Positions 16,672 through 28,259 of a DNA stretch of 64,000 bases are shown here, piece after piece. The stretch comes from a virus: the UHGV virus genome UHGV-0144373; one strand, written 5' to 3'. The notes beneath the pieces were generated by a model, which did no database searches, had not been told where the DNA came from, and worked only from the letters and a program-made list of their open reading frames with translations. Position 1 is the first letter of the stretch, and every line of letters begins with the position of its first letter. Position numbers and translations under genes: made by a program.

Positions 16672-17553
16672 ATGAAAACATCTATCCGTGTTACAGTTCA
16701 TTCACCGACTAAAGGGACTCACGAAGAAGAGTTTAACATTATCCAATTCCCTTCTGGTGAGATTGGTGGACACTTTTCACAAGAGCTTGTTGATTTTACT
16801 GCTTATGCAGCATCATCCATCAACAACGTGGTTATGATTGTAAAGGGTTATGACAAAGACACATTGTTTGCTGTTGCACTTGCTAAAGAAGCAATTGATG
16901 ATTTAGTTCCTCATGATTATGCTCTGAAGACTGTCATTTTTTACTACTTGCCAAATGCACGATATGACCGTCACATGTTTAAAGGCGACGCAGCAGCTTT
17001 AAAGGTTTTTGCTAAACAGATTAATGCAATGGGGTTTGGCGCAGTCTGTGCAGTTGACCCTCACAGCTATGTACCAGATAACCTGTTTAACTGCTTCCAG
17101 AGTATCCCTCAAAAGGAAATTGCAGTCCACTATGCAAATGACCCTCTGATTGATTACTTAGTAGCTCCAGATGCAGGTGCTTCTAAGAAGATTGCAGAGA
17201 CTGCTAAAGAGGTAGATAAACCATACATCACAATGTCTAAAGTACGCAACCTCAAGACTGGTGAAATCACTGGTATGCGAATCCTTGATGATGTTGATTT
17301 GACAGATAAAACTGTCATGATTCTGGATGATATTTGTGATGGAGGCCGAACCTTCATAGAAGCAGCTAAACACCTCCGTAAAGCAGGTGCAAAACGTGTG
17401 GAACTATATGTAACACATGGTATCTTCTCTAAAGGTGTTGAAAACTTACTTGACAATGGTATTGACCATATCTACACTACAAACTCTTTAGGCGAAGCTA
17501 AAGACCGTGGCTTAACACATTACGGCCAAGTTACTGTAGCAACCATTGATTGA
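16672..17553 (+). CDS. ribose-phosphate pyrophosphokinase-like protein (PRPP synthetase homolog; possible ADPR-PP synthetase)
   Basis: 293 aa; PRPP-binding loop MILDDICDGGRTF and VAPDAGASKK; Prs family by motif. Confidence 0.75.
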   Translation: MKTSIRVTVHSPTKGTHEEEFNIIQFPSGEIGGHFSQELVDFTAYAASSINNVVMIVKGYDKDTLFAVALAKEAIDDLVPHDYALKTVIFYYLPNARYDRHMFKGDAAALKVFAKQINAMGFGAVCAVDPHSYVPDNLFNCFQSIPQKEIAVHYANDPLIDYLVAPDAGASKKIAETAKEVDKPYITMSKVRNLKTGEITGMRILDDVDLTDKTVMILDDICDGGRTFIEAAKHLRKAGAKRVELYVTHGIFSKGVENLLDNGIDHIYTTNSLGEAKDRGLTHYGQVTVATID

Positions 17554-17598: not shown

Positions 17599-19380
17599 AT
17601 GACTAAATCACTTTATGCAGTACCAGCAGGTCTTAATGCAGATGCTTACAAGGCATCACATATATATCAGTATCCAGATGCTACACAATATCTTATGTTG
17701 AACCTGACACCACGTAGTGATAAATGGTTTAACAGTCCTTTAGCAATTGACGGTGTAGTGGCTTTTGGTATTCAACGTTTTGTTAAAGATTACTTGATAG
17801 ACCACTGGAATGCCACTTTCTTTGAACGTGATAAAAAAGAAGCAATTGACGAAATCTTAGAAGTCATGAATGGTGTTCTGGGTAAAGATGCTATCGGTCG
17901 AGAGCATTGGGAAGCACTTCACGACTTAGGCTATCTACCAGTTGAAGTATACGCTGTAGAAGAAGGTGCAGTTGTTCCTATGCGTGTCCCAATGATTGTC
18001 TTCCAGAACACTGTTTCAGGCTTCCATTGGGTAGCAGGGTATCTGGAAGATGCTTTCTCTGCTGAGATTTGGAAGGCTTGCACTATTGCAACTATTGCAT
18101 TGCATTACAAACGCATCTGTAAGAAGTGGGCTGACCTTACTTGCGACAATGACTTACATTTACCCTATCAGTGCCATGACTTTGCTATGCGTGGTATGTC
18201 CGGCTTTACTGATGACGCATTTAACGCTGTAGGTCACTTAACCAGCTTTAAAGGAACTGATAGCTTCCCTGCTGTGTATACGGCTAAACGAATCTATGGA
18301 CAGTCCTACCCAATCTCTGATATTGGTAGCTCTGTACCAGCCACTGAACACTCTGTGATGTGTGCAAACATTGCTTGGGAAGGTGGTAATGAATTGATTG
18401 AAGATGAAAGACGTTTTAAAGGTGAGTTACAAACCTTCCGTCGTTTCTTAACAGAAACTTACCCAACTGGTATTGCAAGTATTGTTTCAGACACTTATAA
18501 CTTCTGGAGAACTGTGTCAGAAATCTTACCAGCACTACGTAAAGAAATTATGGAACGTGACGGTAAACTGGTAATTCGCCCTGACTCTGGAGACCCTGTA
18601 CATATTGTCACAGGTTATAAAGCAATCCACTTAGAGTGTGCTAAAAAGGCTTATTATGAGCACCTAAGCAAGCTGGAAGCCAGTGACACAATGCTGAATG
18701 CTGTTCTGAACATGAAGCTTGAAAACATCAGCTATGGTATTGCTGGATGGCTACTGTCAGAAGGATACGAAATGGTTGTTGATAGAGAAGACTTTGAAGT
18801 TGCTGATACAGTGATGTTGAAAAATGCTTATATGGTTGGTTCTGCAAACGTTATAACACGTCCTGTGGCTGAGATTGATGGAGCTATTAAGACACTGTAC
18901 AACATCTTTGGAGGAACTATTAACTCTAAAGGGTTTAAGGTACTGGATGAGCATATCGGTCTTATCTATGGTGACTCTATCACACTGGAACGTGCAAACG
19001 AAATCCTGAAGCGTCTGTATGAAATGGGTTTTGCAAGCTCTAACGTAGTATTTGGTGTAGGCTCTTACACTTACCAGTACATGACTCGTGACACCTTTGC
19101 ATTTGCTGTCAAAGCAACTCTTGCAAGCATTGGTGGTAAAGAGATTATGCTTGCAAAAGACCCTAAAACAGATAGTGGTGTTAAGAAATCTGCTTTTGGC
19201 GGTGTAGCACCTATGTGGGATGGTGATAAGTTGAAAGCTGTAGATGGCTATGGATTCCAGAGCTTTGCAGATGCACTTGAACATCCAGCTTGTGCTTTAC
19301 GTTTAGTCTTTAGTGACTCTGAGCAGTACGGTTACACATCTCTTGGTGATATTCGAAATAATATTGACAAGCAGCTTTAA
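17599..19380 (+). CDS. nicotinamide phosphoribosyltransferase-like protein (Nampt/NadV homolog)
   Basis: 593 aa; GFTDDAFNAVGHL, GTDSFPAVY and SVPATEHSVMC segments recalled as Nampt-family-like (from memory); immediately downstream of the prs-like gene. Confidence 0.7.
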   Translation: MTKSLYAVPAGLNADAYKASHIYQYPDATQYLMLNLTPRSDKWFNSPLAIDGVVAFGIQRFVKDYLIDHWNATFFERDKKEAIDEILEVMNGVLGKDAIGREHWEALHDLGYLPVEVYAVEEGAVVPMRVPMIVFQNTVSGFHWVAGYLEDAFSAEIWKACTIATIALHYKRICKKWADLTCDNDLHLPYQCHDFAMRGMSGFTDDAFNAVGHLTSFKGTDSFPAVYTAKRIYGQSYPISDIGSSVPATEHSVMCANIAWEGGNELIEDERRFKGELQTFRRFLTETYPTGIASIVSDTYNFWRTVSEILPALRKEIMERDGKLVIRPDSGDPVHIVTGYKAIHLECAKKAYYEHLSKLEASDTMLNAVLNMKLENISYGIAGWLLSEGYEMVVDREDFEVADTVMLKNAYMVGSANVITRPVAEIDGAIKTLYNIFGGTINSKGFKVLDEHIGLIYGDSITLERANEILKRLYEMGFASSNVVFGVGSYTYQYMTRDTFAFAVKATLASIGGKEIMLAKDPKTDSGVKKSAFGGVAPMWDGDKLKAVDGYGFQSFADALEHPACALRLVFSDSEQYGYTSLGDIRNNIDKQL

Positions 19381-19955: not shown

Positions 19956-22322
19956 ATGCGCATGGTAAACGACCACGCAGAAGTGCTTAAGAGTTCAACT
20001 TCTTTGGAGACATCTCAAGCACAGATTACAATGACACCTGAAATGTTCAGCCTTTTGAGTTCTGGTGTATACACATTTAAAGAGCGAGCAGTGATTCGTG
20101 AACTGTCATGTAATGCAGTGGATGCTCAGAAAGAAGCTGGAAAAGAGAACATCCCGTTCCATGTGCATTTACCTACTCGATTTGAGCCTTACTTTGAAGT
20201 CCGTGACTTTGGAACTGGATTGACTCATGATAAAGTTATGAGTTTGTACCTAAACTACGGAGCTTCTACGAAGAATGACTCTAATGATTACATTGGTGCA
20301 ATGGGTATCGGCTCAAAATCTCCATTTGCAATTGCTCAGTCATTCACAGTATCTAGCTATGTTGACGGTGTTGTTAATAAGTACTCTGTTTACCTTGAGA
20401 ATGGTATCCCTCAAGTAACTAAGCTTACTACTAACCAAACAAATGAACCTAATGGTTTAGCTGTACGTGTGGCAGTTGCTGACCACCGTATTTCAAAGTT
20501 CTTTGAAGAGGCTGGTCACGTATACTCATACTTTGCTGTAAAACCAGAAAGTAACATTGTATATGATGACGTGTTAGCAGATATGAACGTCATTGCCCGT
20601 GAAGAAGGTGTTTATGATGCTATGATTCATAAGCAAAGCTGGCGTTCTAGTGGCAACAGGACAGATTTTAATGTGGTAATGGGTAATATTGCCTACCCAG
20701 TTAATATGGAAGCATTACTTGGCGATGATTTCTTCAAAGTCTTGCCAGAATTTTTCCGTAGGAGCGTAGACCTTGTAAACATTTACATGCCTATTGGTTC
20801 AGTGGCTATTGCAGCTTCTCGTGAAGCATTGCAGATGAATGATACGACAAAAAATGTTATTATCGAGGCCACCAAAAAGATAACTGGAGCAATTACAAAG
20901 GATGTTATCAAGAAAGTTAATAGTCAACCTACACTCATGGATGCTGCACAGGCTTATGCTGAGTTACGTTTGAACTCACGAGAGATGTTTAATGCTGTGT
21001 GTCCAAAGCTGGAGTGGGGTGGTGTTAAGCTTGATTCTCTGGAAGAAGAATTACTAAACATTCGTCGTGGGATTATCTACGCAGAAGACGGCTCAGTCAT
21101 TTATGAACGTGACGGCAAAGGTAATATTAAGGTTGATAGGAACGGGAACAATATCCCTAAAGTAGATTATCTTTATAATCCAGTTGCTTATGTCAAGTTC
21201 AACTCTTTAGAGAGTAAGATTCGTGCAACAGCACTTTCCTACACTCAAGAGGCAAGTATGTTCAATATCTTTGGTGCAATGCGTAAAAGCCAAATTGAAC
21301 AGTTTTTGTTCGTGATTAATGACCGTCGCAATAAAAATGGCACTGAGAAGACTGTAGGCCGCAATCAGATTCTGCGTGGTGCATGTCGAGATTACGCCAA
21401 TGAGTCAAGTCTGTTTCACAGATACAATGGTATTGTGTTTGTATTCTCGACTGAAAAAGAGTTAGATGATTTAATCAACCTGCATAAACTTGATAAAAGC
21501 TTGTTAAAGATTGTGAAAATGTCTGATAAGGAACACCATTACCAGCGTAAAGAAGCTGTCAGGGGTGTTGTAAAACTCTGGAAAGCTGTTCCAGCAGAAG
21601 GTGTAGCCTCATACACAGAGGTGTCAGAAGACTTTGATACAATTGAAGAACCTCAGCTTTACATTAAGGCAGTTGGTGATACAGTTGATGGCGAATGTTT
21701 TTGCTCATCTCCAGAAGATGTAGCTAAGTCAGTTGCTAATGTTACAGGGAAGACAGTCTATGTTTTCCGAAAAGCAAATTGGAAAAAGATACCAGAAGAC
21801 TGGATTGAAGTAGATGAGAAGCTCTTGAACGACAGTTTAACTGATGTTCACTGGATTAATCATAACAGGTATATGACACGCATCTGTATGCGTGGTGTCC
21901 TTAACCTTACAAGCTGTTGGATTATTACCAGAAACTTTACGTTCAATAACAGGAAGATTTCTGATGGTTATTGCTATTCACGGGACACAAACAAAACTAT
22001 CTTCCTAGAAGGTAATGAAGATGCTGTTGAGGCAATGTTCGGTAAAATCCAATACGTTGCTGCACAATTTGCATACACTTACACTATTAGTGTGTTGCAA
22101 GATTTGAAAAGGTGTCTTGACAATGATACAAAGCTTTATAAGAAAATTAAGAAAGCTGGTGACCGTATGTTTATTAAGGTGACAAACTACTTCTCAAAAA
22201 GAAAACAAGAAAACTTCTTGCTTTCTCATTTAGATTGGAATAAAGTGTCACCCATTGAAGTGAGTAAGTTCTTGGGCTTTGATGTGAAGTGTGTTCCAGA
22301 AGGGACTACAATTTACGATTAA
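19956..22322 (+). CDS. rIIA: rIIA-like protein with N-terminal GHKL (Bergerat-fold) ATPase domain
   Basis: 788 aa; N-box ELSCNAVDA, G1 box VRDFGTGL, G2 box GAMGIGSKS in canonical order; rIIA assignment from architecture, size and following gene. Confidence 0.5.
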   Translation: MRMVNDHAEVLKSSTSLETSQAQITMTPEMFSLLSSGVYTFKERAVIRELSCNAVDAQKEAGKENIPFHVHLPTRFEPYFEVRDFGTGLTHDKVMSLYLNYGASTKNDSNDYIGAMGIGSKSPFAIAQSFTVSSYVDGVVNKYSVYLENGIPQVTKLTTNQTNEPNGLAVRVAVADHRISKFFEEAGHVYSYFAVKPESNIVYDDVLADMNVIAREEGVYDAMIHKQSWRSSGNRTDFNVVMGNIAYPVNMEALLGDDFFKVLPEFFRRSVDLVNIYMPIGSVAIAASREALQMNDTTKNVIIEATKKITGAITKDVIKKVNSQPTLMDAAQAYAELRLNSREMFNAVCPKLEWGGVKLDSLEEELLNIRRGIIYAEDGSVIYERDGKGNIKVDRNGNNIPKVDYLYNPVAYVKFNSLESKIRATALSYTQEASMFNIFGAMRKSQIEQFLFVINDRRNKNGTEKTVGRNQILRGACRDYANESSLFHRYNGIVFVFSTEKELDDLINLHKLDKSLLKIVKMSDKEHHYQRKEAVRGVVKLWKAVPAEGVASYTEVSEDFDTIEEPQLYIKAVGDTVDGECFCSSPEDVAKSVANVTGKTVYVFRKANWKKIPEDWIEVDEKLLNDSLTDVHWINHNRYMTRICMRGVLNLTSCWIITRNFTFNNRKISDGYCYSRDTNKTIFLEGNEDAVEAMFGKIQYVAAQFAYTYTISVLQDLKRCLDNDTKLYKKIKKAGDRMFIKVTNYFSKRKQENFLLSHLDWNKVSPIEVSKFLGFDVKCVPEGTTIYD

Positions 22323-22401: not shown

Positions 22402-23511
22402 ATGACTACTAAAACTAAAGCACAGATTGACGCAGAAATTTACAAACTGGTTAAAGAAGGTAAGCTTACTAAAACAGCTATTGCACAGAAGTTCAATACT
22501 TCAACCCGTTCAGTTGGTCGTGCTGTAGAGCGTCATGAAGCAACCTTAAAAGGTAAGAAAAAGGTAGCTTCTAAACCAGCTACGAAGACTTTGAAGCAAG
22601 TTGCTAAGTCAGTTAAAAAGAAAGCTGGAAAACCAGTTGAAAAGGTTGTTAAAGAGGTTGTACAAAAGGCTCCGGTAAATAAACTACACGAAGCTATGCA
22701 GAATGGCAACCAGATTGAGTACATGATTACTGGTGACTCTGTTATCATGACTTTCGGTGCAGATTCTGAAATAGTTGAATCTACCCATCCGAACTACAAA
22801 GAAATCGTGATGGCTGTTGTATCCGGTGAGTTTAAGAAAGCCTTTGAACTGATGAACATTCGTAAGTCTATCGAAAACTTCACTCAGGGTGCTATCACAA
22901 TCAAGGGTGACAAACTATTCTACGGTGCTGTTGAGATGCGTTCTACTCTGGTTGACCGTATTCTTCACATGATGAAGACTGGAGATAAAGGTTTTGAACG
23001 CCTTGTAATGTTCTTTGAAAAACTGATGGAAAACCCATCTAAAGATTCTGTAGAACAACTTTGGGGCTTCGTATCCCACCTTGATGTTGAAATTGATGAA
23101 GAAGGTTACATCATTGGTTGGAAGAAAGTCTCTACTCGTGAAGGTAAGCTGGTTGACTCCCACACCTACAGAGTACCTAATGATTTAGGTAACATTGTAG
23201 AAATGCCACGTTGGATGGTTGATAATAACCGTAACGTGACTTGCTCACAAGGTCTTCACGTTGGTGCTTGGGATTATGTTCGTTGCTTCTCAGGTGATAC
23301 AATTCTGAAGGTTCGTGTCCATCCACGAGATGTTGTATCTGTTCCAACTGATTACAACGATATGAAGATGCGTTCATCACGTTATGAAGTTGCAGCAATC
23401 GTTGACAATCAACGTAAAGTGCTGAAAGCATGGGATGGCAAGACTGAAGCTTTGCATGTCATCGTTGGTACTGCTGGCGAACTTATTTCTCAGCGTAAAC
23501 GTGAAATCTAA
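22402..23511 (+). CDS. rIIB: rIIB-like protein (tentative)
   Basis: 369 aa, directly downstream of the rIIA-like gene; Lys-rich N-terminal region; assignment by synteny only. Confidence 0.35.
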   Translation: MTTKTKAQIDAEIYKLVKEGKLTKTAIAQKFNTSTRSVGRAVERHEATLKGKKKVASKPATKTLKQVAKSVKKKAGKPVEKVVKEVVQKAPVNKLHEAMQNGNQIEYMITGDSVIMTFGADSEIVESTHPNYKEIVMAVVSGEFKKAFELMNIRKSIENFTQGAITIKGDKLFYGAVEMRSTLVDRILHMMKTGDKGFERLVMFFEKLMENPSKDSVEQLWGFVSHLDVEIDEEGYIIGWKKVSTREGKLVDSHTYRVPNDLGNIVEMPRWMVDNNRNVTCSQGLHVGAWDYVRCFSGDTILKVRVHPRDVVSVPTDYNDMKMRSSRYEVAAIVDNQRKVLKAWDGKTEALHVIVGTAGELISQRKREI

Positions 23512-23611: not shown

Positions 23612-24160
23612 ATGAAGAAATTGATTCTAGGTTTGTGCTTAATGTTTACAGCACACTTATCTTATGCAGTTGACTGCCCAGAGCTATCAATTAGCCAAAA
23701 AGTAAACATGTTAAAAGCTTACCAGTATGGCGAGAATAACATGGGTAAAGGTTGGGGTATCACTCTAGCTGCTATAGCCTTACAAGAGTCAGAGTTAGGT
23801 CTGAAGGTAGAGAATAAAAAGACACATGATTATGGTATTTTCCAGAACCACTTGAAGACTGTTGTAAAGCGTAACAAAATCAGTCCTAATGTGGCTAAAA
23901 AGAAACTCTTAAAAGATTTTGACTATGCTGCAAAGGAAACTCACAAAGAGCTTGAATTTTGGACTAAGGTACACGGTCAACCAAAGTCAAAGAAGACTTT
24001 ACAAAAAGTTTTAGCATCATATAATGCTGGGTATTCGTACAAAATCCCTAAAGCTAAGAAATATTCTCAAGATGTCTATAACAACATGAAAGTCATTGCT
24101 CAATGTGAATTTGCAACAAACATTTCTAAGGTAAACCATGAAAAAATTAAAAAAGTCTGA
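23612..24160 (+). CDS. secreted protein with lytic-transglycosylase-like motif
   Basis: Signal peptide MKKLILGLCLMFTAHLSYA; LAAIALQESELG resembles the SLT-domain catalytic Glu region. Confidence 0.4.
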   Translation: MKKLILGLCLMFTAHLSYAVDCPELSISQKVNMLKAYQYGENNMGKGWGITLAAIALQESELGLKVENKKTHDYGIFQNHLKTVVKRNKISPNVAKKKLLKDFDYAAKETHKELEFWTKVHGQPKSKKTLQKVLASYNAGYSYKIPKAKKYSQDVYNNMKVIAQCEFATNISKVNHEKIKKV

Positions 24161-24833
24161 TGAAGTACTGTGTCATGCTTACGACTTACATCCTCATGAG
24201 TTAGGTCTTGATTCCTGTGTATGGACTCCAGAACAGTGTAGGGATTTTGAAGACACTGCAAGAGAAGTTGTATGTTCACTCGAAGAGTTCCACACATCAG
24301 AGCCAATTGTGAATGTTGTAGATAAAGAGACTGGACAAACTATAGGTGTAAGTCATGATAGCTTAGTCATAGTCAATAAAGACCTTGTAGAAAAAGGTAA
24401 CCTCATCTTAGCAGATATTGATGGTGTTCTTACAAATTTTAATCACGAAGATTACTCAACGGAATTGACTGATGGTTCATTCTCACAGTATACCAATCTT
24501 CTTGATTCTGTAAGAGCAAAGCCAACGTATGTTTTCAATATCATTGATGCAATTGCTAATCATGCTGCCATTGGACTCTTGACAGCGAGAGGTGAATCTC
24601 AGAGAATACCTACTGAGATGTTTTTAAGGCATAACACAGAGCATGACTACATGCTCTTTATGCGTGGTTTTGGGACTAACTCTATAAGTGCAGAAAGTTT
24701 GAAAGTGAGGATGATTCAGTCTTGCATTCTGCCTTACTTTAATATAGTATGTTTTATAGAAGACACAGAGAAGAATGTGCAGAAGGTGAACAGAATCCTT
24801 CCACACATCAAAACCATGTTAGTTAAACATTGA
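24138..24833 (+). CDS. HAD-superfamily hydrolase/phosphatase-like protein
   Basis: LILADIDGVLTNF fits HAD motif I (DxDG[TV]). Confidence 0.45.
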   Translation: MKKLKKSDEVLCHAYDLHPHELGLDSCVWTPEQCRDFEDTAREVVCSLEEFHTSEPIVNVVDKETGQTIGVSHDSLVIVNKDLVEKGNLILADIDGVLTNFNHEDYSTELTDGSFSQYTNLLDSVRAKPTYVFNIIDAIANHAAIGLLTARGESQRIPTEMFLRHNTEHDYMLFMRGFGTNSISAESLKVRMIQSCILPYFNIVCFIEDTEKNVQKVNRILPHIKTMLVKH

Positions 24834-25360: not shown

Positions 25361-25708
25361 ATGACATTTAAAGAGTTCTGTCAAGCTACCTTCATAATTG
25401 TTTTCTTAGTTGGGGCAGGTGTCTGGGGAGGATACTCTTACAGAGACTATCAAGTTGCTGAAGCTGAGCTAAACAATCAAAAGCTCATAAGTGTTGCTAA
25501 AGATGCTTATCAGGAAGGTTTAGTCACACTGAGCACCAATTACAAAAATGATTTGAAAGATGTGCTTGCTAAGAATAAGCATACAAAAGAGGTACTAACA
25601 TATGAAAAAACTAAGCCAGAGTTTTATAATGTTTGTGTTACTGATAACTATGTCAGGGTGTTCAACGAACAAAGTGAACAGTACATTCAAAAACTCCCAA
25701 GTAAGTGA
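25361..25708 (+). CDS. i-spanin-like protein (N-terminal TM helix plus periplasmic helical region)
   Basis: 115 aa; TM FIIVFLVGAGVWGGYSY then charged helical region; 3' end overlaps the next gene in a different frame. Confidence 0.4.
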   Translation: MTFKEFCQATFIIVFLVGAGVWGGYSYRDYQVAEAELNNQKLISVAKDAYQEGLVTLSTNYKNDLKDVLAKNKHTKEVLTYEKTKPEFYNVCVTDNYVRVFNEQSEQYIQKLPSK

Positions 25709-25871
25709 GAGTGACAAGTACACTCAAGAAGAATCAAGATTCACTGTCAAAGGTAATACTGGCAGCGATGTGGCAGCAGCCCTTGAGTTCTATCGTGATG
25801 GATTTTACCAGTGCACAATCAAAGCTAATAACCTTATTGATATGATTTTATTAGGAAACAAACAGCAATGA
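25602..25871 (+). CDS. o-spanin-like lipoprotein
   Basis: 89 aa; signal peptide with lipobox-like TMSGC; gene starts 107 nt inside the preceding gene. Not Pro-rich, so tentative. Confidence 0.35.
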   Translation: MKKLSQSFIMFVLLITMSGCSTNKVNSTFKNSQVSESDKYTQEESRFTVKGNTGSDVAAALEFYRDGFYQCTIKANNLIDMILLGNKQQ

Positions 25872-26680: not shown

Positions 26681-26881
26681 ATGGCTGACTTCTGCAAAGA
26701 CTGTTCTATCGAAATGTTCGGACGTGATACAGGTGACTTAAAAGGTCTTATCACTGAAGATGACTTTAAAGCTGGCTATGCAATGCCAGTAATCTGTGAA
26801 GGTTGTGGGTGCATCTGGGTAGACCACGAAGGACAGCGTGTAAAACCTTCAGAAGATAAAGAATCTTGGGAGAGATGTTAA
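26681..26881 (+). CDS. small Cys-rich protein (zinc-ribbon-like)
   Basis: 66 aa; CKDC...CEGCGC. Confidence 0.4.
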   Translation: MADFCKDCSIEMFGRDTGDLKGLITEDDFKAGYAMPVICEGCGCIWVDHEGQRVKPSEDKESWERC

Positions 26882-27667
26882 ATGGGTATTGTAAAAATAA
26901 TCAATGGTGATATCTTTGCCGCATTTGATAAAGGTAAGTTTGACATCATCGGTCACGGTTGCAACTGTATGAATTTAATGGGTGCAGGTATTGCAGCAAC
27001 TATTTCTAAGCGTTATCCAAAAGTGTATGATACTGACACAGAAGTTTACCTGTTTGCAGGCGGCATCCGTCACAAACCCTGTGAAAATTTACTGGGTAAT
27101 TTCTCCGTAGCACGTTTAAAACAAGGCCGTATAGCTAACCTTTACACCCAACTTCATACTGGTAAAGATGCCCGATACAGTGCTTTAGAGTCATCTTTGA
27201 AACAGCTTAACAGATACTGTGAAGTTAACCAGTTGAAGAAAGTTGGTCTACCTATGATTGGTGCAGGTATTGGTGGACTCGACCCTCAAGCCGCCACAGT
27301 TATCATTAATCAGGTGATGAAAAGTGTAGATGTTTATCTGTATGTCTACGAAGGAGAGATGTACCACAAGTTACTCTCAGGTTGGAAGAACTACTGTGAA
27401 CCAGAATACTTTGCAGGTGTAGTAACGTTCACAGATAATACAGTTACCCTCTTCAGACGAAGAAAAGGTAAGATACATCAAAGTAACCCTCCGGTTGAAA
27501 AGATGTCTCTAAGTAACGCTCTAGTTACCCACCTGTCGAAGAGCAATCACAGAATTGCTGTGACATTTGGTAGTGATGCCGATGCTTACATTTATGCAAG
27601 AACTGATGAGGATATCGAGGCAATCTTCTCTTCACCAGAAGTTACCTTCTTAGACGCAAAGAACTAA
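26882..27667 (+). CDS. macrodomain protein (TARG1/OARD1-like), possible ADP-ribose hydrolase
   Basis: GDIFAAFDKGKFDIIGHGCNCMNLMGAGIA and VGLPMIGAGIGGLDP match the macrodomain signature pattern; about 110-aa C-terminal extension. Confidence 0.55.
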   Translation: MGIVKIINGDIFAAFDKGKFDIIGHGCNCMNLMGAGIAATISKRYPKVYDTDTEVYLFAGGIRHKPCENLLGNFSVARLKQGRIANLYTQLHTGKDARYSALESSLKQLNRYCEVNQLKKVGLPMIGAGIGGLDPQAATVIINQVMKSVDVYLYVYEGEMYHKLLSGWKNYCEPEYFAGVVTFTDNTVTLFRRRKGKIHQSNPPVEKMSLSNALVTHLSKSNHRIAVTFGSDADAYIYARTDEDIEAIFSSPEVTFLDAKN

Positions 27668-27730
27668 GAAACTCTGTAGGATATTCACAATAGGCTAAGC
27701 CTTTCTTATCTGGTAAATTTTTCAGGTAAG

Positions 27731-27920
27731 GAGGGCTTTTTCATTTCAGATTTGTGCAGGTAGAGTTCTGTAGAGGAATCTATAGAGAAAATTTTGAACT
27801 CCAAAGAGCTTTTTCATTTTCAAACTGTGCAGGTAATCTCCAAAGAGCTTTTTCATTTTCAAAACGTGCAGAGAAAAATCAGGTCGGGCAAGAAAAATCA
27901 TTTTAGAATTGTGCAGGTAG
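27731..27920 (+). repeat. four direct repeats (about 33 bp; iteron-like)
   Basis: 27731-27763, 27803-27836, 27841-27873, 27888-27920 share (AAAGAGC)TTTTTCATTTTCAAA-N-GTGCAGGTA; AT-rich stretch follows. Confidence 0.6.
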
Positions 27921-28094
27921 GTGGGTGTAGGTGGGGATGTCGCCATTTCTCACAAGGCTACCACATCCGAAAAGAAAAGTCAACAGAAAAATTTGTAGCG
28001 GATTGAAAAATAATTCTTGATTTGTTTTCTGTTTTGTGGTATTCGCGTGCGCCCGTTTCATTACATTTTGCCAAAAATATTTTTAAAATTTTTC

Positions 28095-28123
28095 TTGACT
28101 CCTCGAACGGGTTTTTATAGTAT
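28095..28123 (+). promoter_or_regulatory. sigma70-like promoter
   Basis: TTGACT, 17-nt spacer, TAGTAT. Confidence 0.4.
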
Positions 28124-28171
28124 TTGCATCAGACGGGGCGACAAGCTCCCTTCCTAAAATGGAAAGTCTAG

Positions 28172-28259
28172 AAAGTACTTTACAAGGGGCTTAAAAGTTG
28201 TTACCTTAAGCCCCAGATAAAGAGCTTTACCAACAACCTTAAACTAGGAGAATATGAAA
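28172..28259 (+). promoter_or_regulatory. class-A cassette element (copy 1)
   Basis: AAAGTACTTTACAA, hairpin GGGGCTTAA-N-TTAAGCCCC, AGATAAAGAGCTTTACC, then SD GGAGA and ATG. Confidence 0.6.

What the first reader, a model, noticed from the sequence alone, without database searches (positions are those of the whole stretch)
26882..27667. Macrodomain (TARG1/OARD1-like) protein, candidate de-ADP-ribosylase
The N-terminal 150 aa carry the macrodomain signature pair (GD-IF...IGHGCNCMNLMGAGIA and LPMIGAGIGGLDP). Macrodomains remove ADP-ribose from proteins or nucleic acids; a phage copy could counter host ADP-ribosyltransferase toxins such as DarT-like enzymes or recycle ADP-ribose. It sits 8 kb from the NAD+ genes and directly upstream of the iteron-like repeats. 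The C-terminal 110 aa are unassigned.
Basis: partly seen in the sequence, partly recalled or inferred. Interest (0 to 1): 0.6.

Follow-up and report, generated by a model that had tools for sequence, protein, structure and literature searches.

The report
Phage macrodomain enzyme with orphan tail
This FelixO1-like phage gene encodes a genuine macrodomain enzyme, a relative of the T4 protein that defeats the bacterial DarTG2 DNA-ADP-ribosylating defence. It carries an extra fast-evolving C-terminal domain of unknown role, so it is a fairly ordinary member of a known counter-defence family with one unexplained add-on.

Summary

The window is a Felixounavirus. The gene belongs to PHROG 335 and is usually annotated "phosphatase". 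Its macro part is 40% identical to T4 Tk.4, which a 2025 preprint named AdfM because deleting it makes T4 sensitive to DarTG2.

The TARG1 Lys84/Asp125 dyad is absent. The lysine position is Gln90, invariant in this phage family and also in T4 Tk.4. A Gln at that position is essential in Streptomyces SCO6735, which cleaves thymidine-linked ADP-ribose from DNA.

The most likely function is early-expressed removal of DarT2-type ADP-ribose from phage DNA. This is inferred from homology and has not been shown for this protein.

The C-terminal 105 aa fold confidently but match no Pfam family, solved structure or viral model. They occur only fused to this macrodomain in Ounavirinae-type phages, and they evolve about twice as fast as the macro part.

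Verdict: new member of a known kind, with modest interest.

The parts
26882..27667 (+). Complete CDS of 261 aa: macrodomain plus C-terminal domain (PHROG 335)
   Evidence: ORF list. PHROG 335 E 5e-112 over aa 1-260. Homologs at 92-96% identity in Felixounavirus genomes.
26868..26874 (+). Shine-Dalgarno-like GGGAGAG, 7 nt before the ATG. The upstream ORF's TAA stop (26879-26881) abuts the ATG, which suggests translational coupling.
   Evidence: Read directly from the sequence.
26882..27349 (+). Macrodomain (aa 1-156) of the ALC1-like class (TARG1/DarG/SCO6735/Poa1p). It has the ADPr-binding loops MGAGIA (aa 33-38) and IGAGIGG (aa 126-132) and the GD motif (D10).
26963..26965 (+). Codon for Asn28 (in HGCNC), equivalent to DarG active-site Asn22. 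Invariant in the family.
   Evidence: Alignments. The N22/K80 roles in T. aquaticus DarG are taken from PMC13309987.
27149..27151 (+). Codon for Gln90 (in NLYTQ), at the position of TARG1 Lys84, DarG Lys80 and SCO6735 Gln85. Invariant in the family and present in T4/T6 Tk.4.
   Evidence: Alignments. SCO6735 Q85A is inactive (PMC9411070).
27350..27664 (+). C-terminal domain (aa 157-261): one helix, six beta strands and a terminal helix. An orphan fold found only fused to this macrodomain.
27697..27738 (+). Terminator-like hairpin followed by a T-rich tail. This makes the macro gene the last gene of its transcription unit.
   Evidence: Consensus scan only.

Best explanation
The gene encodes an early-region phage ADP-ribosyl hydrolase of the T4 Tk.4/AdfM family. 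Its N-terminal macrodomain binds ADP-ribose through the two glycine-rich loops. It most likely uses the Gln-type (SCO6735-like) active site, built from Asn28, Gln90 and an activated water, to cut ADP-ribose off thymidines that a host DarT2-type toxin has attached to single-stranded phage DNA. That would restore replication (counter-defence).

Shown here: the fold, the family membership, the intact binding loops, the active-site residue identities and the genomic context. Inferred: the substrate (thymidine-ADPr DNA), the hydrolytic mechanism and the anti-DarTG2 role. The C-terminal 105-aa domain is a lineage-specific, faster-evolving appendage. Its role is unknown and may involve substrate or partner targeting.
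For: Macro fold and family. DarG is the only PADLOC hit (E 2e-13) and the top NCBIfam hit (E 3e-13). Identity to T4 Tk.4 is 40% over 135 aa, E 5e-24, with shared HGCNC/NLYTQ/IGAGIG motifs. The T4/T6 homolog is tk.4 by genome position. Deleting T4 tk.4 (adfM) sensitises T4 to DarTG2 (10.1101/2025.11.20.689424). TARG1, DarG and SCO6735, all from this clade, each cleave thymidine-ADPr DNA (PMC12879935). SCO6735 has Gln at the Lys position, needs it for activity, and protects against DarT (PMC9411070). The gene sits in a conserved same-strand block with rIIA/rIIB and NAD+ salvage genes, typical of early host-takeover regions, and this synteny is kept in distant relatives.
Against: There are no biochemical or genetic data for any Felixounavirus copy. 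The T4 result is genetic only, comes from a preprint, and involves a protein that is 40% identical and lacks the C-terminal domain. Macrodomain substrate range cannot be read from sequence: a survey of viral NAD+/ADPr systems argues that phage macrodomains mainly target small ADPr derivatives (PMC9503650). The catalytic lysine of DarG and TARG1 is missing. The Gln90 = SCO6735 Gln85 equivalence rests on transitivity, not on a direct superposition (one search failed to retrieve 5e3b).
Confidence: 0.55

Rival explanations
1. The enzyme acts on small soluble ADP-ribose derivatives rather than on DNA. Candidates are ADP-ribose-1''-phosphate (Poa1p-type phosphatase), O-acetyl-ADP-ribose, or ADPr-based immune signals and toxic metabolites made by host TIR, sirtuin or RES enzymes.
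Against: Sequence matches to Poa1p cover only aa 2-60, at E about 1e-2 to 1e-4. The annotations are transferred by homology, not tested. The one functional datum for this subfamily (T4 Tk.4) points to DarTG2. No Tpt1/KptA-type gene was noticed in the stretch examined.
Confidence: 0.2
2. The enzyme removes ADP-ribose from proteins or RNA. It would reverse a host ADP-ribosyltransferase defence, or tune ADP-ribosylation made by the phage itself.
For: TARG1 and SCO6735 also de-modify proteins (PMC9411070). TARG1 is the top PDB sequence hit. T4-like phages that carry Tk.4 also encode the ADP-ribosyltransferases Alt and Mod.
Against: The TARG1 Lys/Asp dyad used for Glu/Asp-linked protein ADPr is absent. 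No ADP-ribosyltransferase gene was seen in the part of the window examined. From the paper titles and abstracts only, T4 carries Tk.4 yet is restricted by the mRNA ADP-ribosyltransferase system CmdTAC; this is an inference.
Confidence: 0.15
3. The protein works mainly without catalysis. It would act as an ADP-ribose reader or sponge, or as a stoichiometric inhibitor that binds DarT (or another host factor) through the macrodomain and/or the C-terminal domain.
For: The canonical catalytic Lys is missing. Catalytically dead DarG, TARG1 and SCO6735 macrodomains still inhibit DarT by interaction (PMC9411070). DarG and the phage protein AdfB neutralise DarT by binding. The fast-evolving C-terminal domain fits an arms-race interface.
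Against: Gln at this position is catalytically essential, not inactivating, in SCO6735. Asn28 and both binding loops are invariant. T4 Tk.4 works without any C-terminal domain. The C-terminal domain shows no similarity to the DarG C-terminal domain and has no conserved charge (pI 4.6-9.5).
Confidence: 0.1

Closest known systems
T4 Tk.4 = AdfM (anti-DarT factor Macrodomain; PHROG 335; bioRxiv 10.1101/2025.11.20.689424)
   Same: Same PHROG. The macrodomain is 40% identical, E 5e-24. It shares the HGCNC, NLYTQ and IGAGIG motifs, including Gln at the Lys position. Both are genes of large lytic enterobacterial myoviruses in non-structural gene blocks.
   Different: T4 Tk.4 is 155 aa and macrodomain-only. 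The window protein has an extra 105-aa C-terminal domain, which is absent from T4/T6 and their flanks. No functional data exist for the Felixounavirus version.
Streptomyces coelicolor SCO6735 (PDB 5e3b), thymidine-ADPr DNA hydrolase
   Same: ALC1-like class macrodomain lacking the TARG1/DarG lysine, with an essential Gln at that position (PMC9411070). A weak direct sequence match exists (E 0.0062-0.074).
   Different: It is a bacterial, SOS-regulated, single-domain protein and only a distant relative. Its longer mobile loop with Lys89/Lys94 was not examined here. The Gln equivalence is by transitivity through TARG1 and DarG.
DarG (DarG2) antitoxin macrodomain (PDB 5m3i, 5m31, 7omu) and chimallivirus PhiKZ gp104 AdfM
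   Different: DarG Lys80 (PhiKZ Lys78) is replaced by Gln90. There is no DarG C-terminal DarT-binding domain and no adjacent darT gene. The NCBIfam score of 49.7 is far below the equivalog cut-off of 250.
Human TARG1/OARD1 (PDB 4j5r, 2lgr)
   Different: The catalytic dyad Lys84/Asp125 is replaced by Gln90/Gly131. Identity is about 22-27%. TARG1 is eukaryotic and single-domain.
Yeast Poa1p (PDB 6lfq), ADP-ribose-1''-phosphate phosphatase
   Different: Sequence similarity is detectable only over aa 2-60. Phosphatase activity has not been tested for any phage member.

Membership tests
Macro domain superfamily (Pfam PF01661) | Profile match above the curated gathering score | tested here: met
   32.7 bits against a cut-off of 22, E 7.7e-8, profile positions 2-117 of 118.
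Macro domain superfamily (Pfam PF01661) | Three-layer alpha/beta/alpha macro fold | tested here: met
Macro domain superfamily (Pfam PF01661) | ADP-ribose-binding glycine-rich loops and the adenine-contacting Asp | tested here: met
   MGAGIA (33-38), IGAGIGG (126-132) and G9-D10 are invariant or nearly invariant in 20 homologs and align with the same loops of DarG and TARG1.
Macro domain superfamily (Pfam PF01661) | Measured ADP-ribose binding or hydrolysis | not testable with these tools
   Needs ITC, thermal shift and hydrolase assays.
T4 Tk.4 / AdfM family (PHROG 335) | Profile and pairwise homology to T4 Tk.4 | tested here: met
   PHROG 335 E 5e-112. BLASTP to T4 Tk.4 gives 40% identity, E 5e-24. 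The T4/T6 gene identity is confirmed by its position between vs and tk.3.
T4 Tk.4 / AdfM family (PHROG 335) | Family motifs HGCNC, NLYTQ and P-x-IGAGIG | tested here: met
T4 Tk.4 / AdfM family (PHROG 335) | Protects the phage from DarTG2 | not testable with these tools
   Known only for T4 by knockout. No Felixounavirus was tested in that study.
TARG1/OARD1 | Catalytic dyad Lys84 / Asp125 | tested here: not met
   These positions align with Gln90 and Gly131.
DarG antitoxin (NCBIfam NF048014 equivalog) | Whole-protein score above the curated cut-off | tested here: not met
   49.7 bits against a cut-off of 250. Only profile positions 4-150 of 338 match.
DarG antitoxin (NCBIfam NF048014 equivalog) | Active-site Asn22 and Lys80 | tested here: not met
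   Asn is kept (N28), but Lys is replaced by Gln90.
DarG antitoxin (NCBIfam NF048014 equivalog) | C-terminal DarT-binding domain and an adjacent darT gene | tested here: not met
   DarG HMMs do not cover aa 160-261. The C-terminal model has no solved relative. The neighbours are small phage ORFs and a non-coding repeat region.
SCO6735-type (Gln active site) ALC1-like macrodomains | Gln at the TARG1 Lys84 / DarG Lys80 position | tested here: met
   Q90 aligns with K84 and K80. SCO6735 Gln85 is stated to be the equivalent position (PMC9411070). The link is by transitivity, because no direct alignment to 5e3b was obtained.
Poa1p-type ADP-ribose-1''-phosphate phosphatase | Full-length homology to Poa1p and phosphatase activity | tested here: inconclusive

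The most novel reading that the evidence does not exclude
The orphan, fast-evolving C-terminal domain is a second neutralising module that binds DarT2 or another host ADP-ribosyltransferase or defence protein. That would make this Ounavirinae protein a two-pronged antitoxin mimic, with an enzymatic eraser plus a stoichiometric inhibitor. It would be functionally convergent with DarG's macro plus C-terminal architecture but built from an unrelated fold.
Probability: 0.15. Interest if true: 0.55.

Novelty: new member of a known kind. Interest (0 to 1): 0.3.

Why it matters
If the inference holds, FelixO1-like phages carry a ready-made eraser of DarT2 DNA ADP-ribosylation. These phages are widely used for Salmonella and E. 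coli typing, biocontrol and therapy. The eraser would help explain their host range on DarTG2-bearing strains.

The family-wide Lys-to-Gln active site links the phage AdfM/Tk.4 enzymes to the SCO6735-type mechanism rather than to the DarG/TARG1 lysine mechanism. That link could be tested directly with one point mutant.

The C-terminal domain is a small, well-folded, lineage-restricted module with no known relatives. It is a cheap target for structure and interaction studies. None of this changes current concepts: phage macrodomains and anti-DarT factors are already established.

Tried and rejected
C-terminal domain (aa 157-261):
- Pfam scan of 16 members gave only scattered single-member hits at E above 0.02.
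- Foldseek against BFVD found only its own family (SUSP2 macro protein).
- A profile search against PDB sequences found nothing credible.
- The exhaustive profile search of 1.84e9 representatives gave 11 hits. The real ones are the same fusion or fragments of it. The long multi-stretch hits are beta-propeller or repeat proteins (P0042 is PQQ-like) and were rejected as spurious.
- A search for a split-off C-terminal-like ORF in the T4/T6 tk.4 flanks and in the whole window found none.
- Foldseek against afdb50 was requested, but the library was unavailable.

Other attempts:
- I tried to obtain a printed alignment to SCO6735 (5e3b) using a sub-sequence query. 5e3b was not retrieved.
- I tested whether the small Zn-ribbon-like ORF abutting the macro start is a conserved partner. 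A distant relative has a 63-aa CxxC...CxxC ORF in the same place, but there is no detectable homology (E 0.5), and another relative has an unrelated 103-aa ORF. Rejected as a conserved partner.
- Short database variants (P0007 frameshifted, P0068 with an internal deletion between the two GAGI motifs, P0082 N-terminally truncated) look like rare mutants or assembly artefacts. They are not evidence for a natural macro-only form.
- Rfam on the downstream intergenic region found no match.
- One search was a failed script, because a locus file was not yet present.
- C-terminal charge as a hint of DNA mimicry or DNA binding: pI varies from 4.6 to 9.5 across the family, so there is no consistent signal.

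Full report
**Observation.** The quoted motifs are in the translation. A GGGAGAG Shine-Dalgarno-like motif sits 7 nt upstream of the ATG. The TAA stop of the preceding 66-aa ORF abuts the ATG. The N-terminus MGIVK and M1 are conserved in all 20 full-length homologs, so the start codon is sound.

**Is it a macrodomain?** Yes.
- Pfam Macro (PF01661) matches aa 25-141 at 32.7 bits, against a gathering score of 22, with E 7.7e-8.
- A single-sequence search of PDB chains puts human TARG1/OARD1 first (E 5e-6). M. tuberculosis and T. aquaticus DarG macrodomains and coronavirus Mac1 follow. A profile of 20 homologs raises TARG1 to E 2.3e-12 and DarG to E 1.8e-8.
- An AlphaFold2 model built on that alignment is confident (pLDDT 90.1, pTM 0.88).

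All of these matches cover about 135-150 residues, that is, the N-terminal part only.

**Which phage and which family?** The region is 90-95% identical at the DNA level to about 210 Felixounavirus genomes from Escherichia, Salmonella and Shigella phages. The protein is PHROG 335 ("phosphatase", E 5e-112). Public records call it phosphatase, macro domain-containing protein, O-acetyl-ADP-ribose deacetylase or hypothetical protein.

tblastn finds the full-length form in about 271 phage records: Felixounavirus and relatives such as Citrobacter phage Michonne. The macro part alone (aa 3-160) matches about 2,500 further records, many of them T4-like phages. The T6 and T4 homolog lies between vs and tk.3, so it is gene tk.4, annotated "phosphatase; contains A1pp phosphatase motif". 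The window protein and T4 Tk.4 share 40% identity over 135 aa, E 5e-24.

**What is known about that family?**
- A 2025 preprint on transposon mapping of T4 found tk.4 to be the single gene needed for growth on a DarTG2 host. It confirmed this with a clean knockout and named the gene adfM, anti-DarT factor Macrodomain. Enzymology was not done (10.1101/2025.11.20.689424).
- Independently, a more DarG-like macrodomain of nucleus-forming phages (PhiKZ gp104, also named AdfM) was shown in vitro to remove DarT2-made ADP-ribose from DNA. Its active-site residues are N23 and K78 (PMC13309987).
- TARG1, DarG and the Streptomyces protein SCO6735 all cleave thymidine-linked ADP-ribose on DNA (PMC12879935).
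- In the defence-protein library, the window protein hits only DarG (E 2e-13), as does T4 Tk.4.
- No Felixounavirus was examined in the T4 study.

**Active site.** I retrieved the true chain sequences of M. tuberculosis and T. aquaticus DarG from the PDB. I then aligned them with TARG1, T4 Tk.4, the window protein and four other phage relatives.
- DarG Asn22 aligns with Asn28 of the HGCNC motif, which is invariant in the family.
- TARG1 Lys84 / DarG Lys80 aligns with Gln90 of the invariant NLYTQ motif. T4 and T6 Tk.4 and every phage relative inspected also have Gln there.
- TARG1 Asp125 aligns with a Gly, as it does in DarG.

The protein is therefore not a TARG1-type or DarG-type enzyme in mechanistic terms. 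This does not argue for an inactive domain. SCO6735 lacks both TARG1 residues and has Gln85 at the lysine position. Its Q85A mutant is dead, and it still cleaves thymidine-ADPr DNA and protects cells from DarT. The authors propose that the Gln positions the distal ribose while a water molecule is activated (PMC9411070). By transitivity, Gln90 is the SCO6735-type residue. I could not obtain a direct alignment to 5e3b.

**Membership.** The protein is a member of the Macro superfamily and of the T4 Tk.4/AdfM family (PHROG 335). It belongs to the ALC1-like class together with TARG1, DarG, SCO6735 and Poa1p. It is not a TARG1 orthologue, because the dyad is absent. It is not a DarG equivalog either: NCBIfam scores 49.7 bits against a cut-off of 250, only the macro part is covered, there is no DarT-binding C-terminal domain, and there is no adjacent darT gene.

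**C-terminal 105 aa.** This part folds with good confidence in the full-length model (block pLDDT 84-93). On its own it folds less well (pLDDT 77), which suggests it leans on the macrodomain. Its layout is a helix (158-167), six beta strands and a terminal helix (242-249).

It has no detectable relative outside its own family:
- No Pfam match.
- No PDB sequence match.
- No relative among predicted viral structures other than its own family.

An exhaustive profile search of 1.84 billion cluster representatives found 11 hits. The credible ones are the same macro fusion (246-260 aa) or fragments of it. Carriers are 85-90 kb Ounavirinae-type myoviruses: Felixounavirus, Michonne, Si3/SUSP-like phages and Hafnia phage Zyzzx. 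No separate ORF resembling it exists near tk.4 in T4 or T6, or elsewhere in the window.

The domain evolves about twice as fast as the macrodomain (mean pairwise identity 30% against 57%). Its net charge is not conserved (pI 4.6-9.5). Its function is therefore open. The data exclude detectable homology to the DarG C-terminal domain. They do not support a conserved DNA-mimic or DNA-binding surface.

**Context.** All neighbouring genes are on the + strand. Their order is:
- a PRPP-synthetase-like gene (16672-17553) and NAMPT (17599-19380);
- rIIA (19956-22322) and rIIB (22402-23511);
- a signal-peptide protein (23612-24160);
- a HAD "polynucleotide kinase"-like protein (24138-24833);
- a spanin-like pair;
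- four small unknown ORFs;
- the macro gene.

The rIIA, rIIB, HAD-like, small-ORF and Macro+CTD order is kept in relatives whose macro protein is only about 33-35% identical overall to the window protein. A terminator-like hairpin (27697-27738) follows the stop codon. Then comes a 590-bp non-coding stretch with four copies of a 34-48 nt repeat. A sigma-70-like promoter match (28095-28123) precedes the next gene.

This looks like the end of an early, host-takeover-type transcription unit. Timing was not measured. The 7.5-kb distance to the NAD+ genes is real, but nothing links them functionally beyond the shared NAD+/ADPr theme.

**Mechanism and rivals.**
- Best explanation (0.55): an early-expressed ADP-ribosyl hydrolase that strips DarT2-type thymidine ADP-ribose from phage ssDNA, using a Gln-type active site.
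- Rival 1 (0.2): hydrolysis of small ADPr derivatives, such as Appr1p, OAADPr or immune signals, as argued generally for phage macrodomains in PMC9503650.
- Rival 2 (0.15): removal of ADP-ribose from proteins or RNA.
- Rival 3 (0.1): a largely non-catalytic binder or inhibitor.

Each is separable with the substrate panel and point mutants listed under next steps.

**Novelty and score.** Phage macrodomains are common: 41% of myoviruses carry one (PMC9503650). This one is in databases under several names, and its T4 orthologue already has a published counter-defence role. What remains new is modest. First, the Ounavirinae-specific C-terminal orphan domain. Second, the observation that the whole Tk.4/AdfM-type family carries the SCO6735-type Gln rather than the DarG/TARG1 Lys. 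I rate it a new member of a known kind, with interest 0.3.

Noticed in passing
window 27715-27919 (within intergenic 27668-28253): Four copies of a 34-48 nt direct repeat, roughly ...CTTTTTCATTT(T)CA(A/G)A(N)TGTGCAG(GTA), lie in a 590-bp non-coding stretch right after the macro gene. The first copy overlaps a terminator-like hairpin (27697-27738). There is no Rfam match, and the repeat's function (promoters, iterons or a regulator-binding array) is unresolved.
   Followed up: partly
window 26681-26881 (+): A 66-aa ORF with CxxC...CxxCxC spacing (small zinc-ribbon-like, PHROG 2210, unknown function). Its stop codon abuts the macro gene's ATG. A distant relative (L005 7810-8001) has an unrelated 63-aa CxxC...CxxC ORF in the same position, with no detectable homology (E 0.5).
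   Followed up: partly
window 16672-17553 and 17599-19380 (+): A PRPP-synthetase-like protein (Pribosyltran / Pribosyl_synth) and a 593-aa nicotinamide phosphoribosyltransferase (NAPRTase/NAMPT_N domains). This looks like a phage NAD+ salvage pair, as in NAD+-reconstitution counter-defence pathways. No NMN adenylyltransferase was looked for.
   Followed up: no
window 19956-22322 and 22402-23511 (+): rIIA-like (788 aa) and rIIB-like (369 aa) genes by PHROG, although Pfam found nothing at E <= 0.001 for the window copies. The rIIA-rIIB ... Macro order is conserved in distant relatives L004 and L005.
   Followed up: partly
window 24138-24833 (+): A 231-aa protein in PHROG 3970, 'polynucleotide kinase' (E 8.5e-134). 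Only weak or faint HAD_PNKP phosphatase-domain similarity is seen in relatives, and no kinase domain is evident, so it may be a stand-alone HAD phosphatase rather than a true PNK.
   Followed up: no
window 25361-25708 and 25602-25871 (+): A spanin-like pair. The 115-aa ORF has an N-terminal membrane segment and is annotated Rz-like spanin in a relative. It overlaps an 89-aa ORF whose N-terminus carries a lipobox-like LITMSGC, resembling an o-spanin. The pair sits in the early-type gene block, not next to obvious lysis genes.
   Followed up: no
window 23612-24160 (+): A 182-aa protein with a signal-peptide-like N-terminus (MKKLILGLCLMFTAHLSYA), in PHROG 600 (unknown function). The syntenic gene in relative L005 has a weak SLT (lytic transglycosylase) Pfam hit.
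   Followed up: no
database variants of the same gene (P0007, P0068, P0082): Rare short forms occur among close relatives. One is frameshifted after aa ~165. One has an in-frame deletion joining the two G-A-G-I loop motifs, which removes most of the macrodomain. One is N-terminally truncated. These are probably mutants or assembly artefacts.
   Followed up: partly
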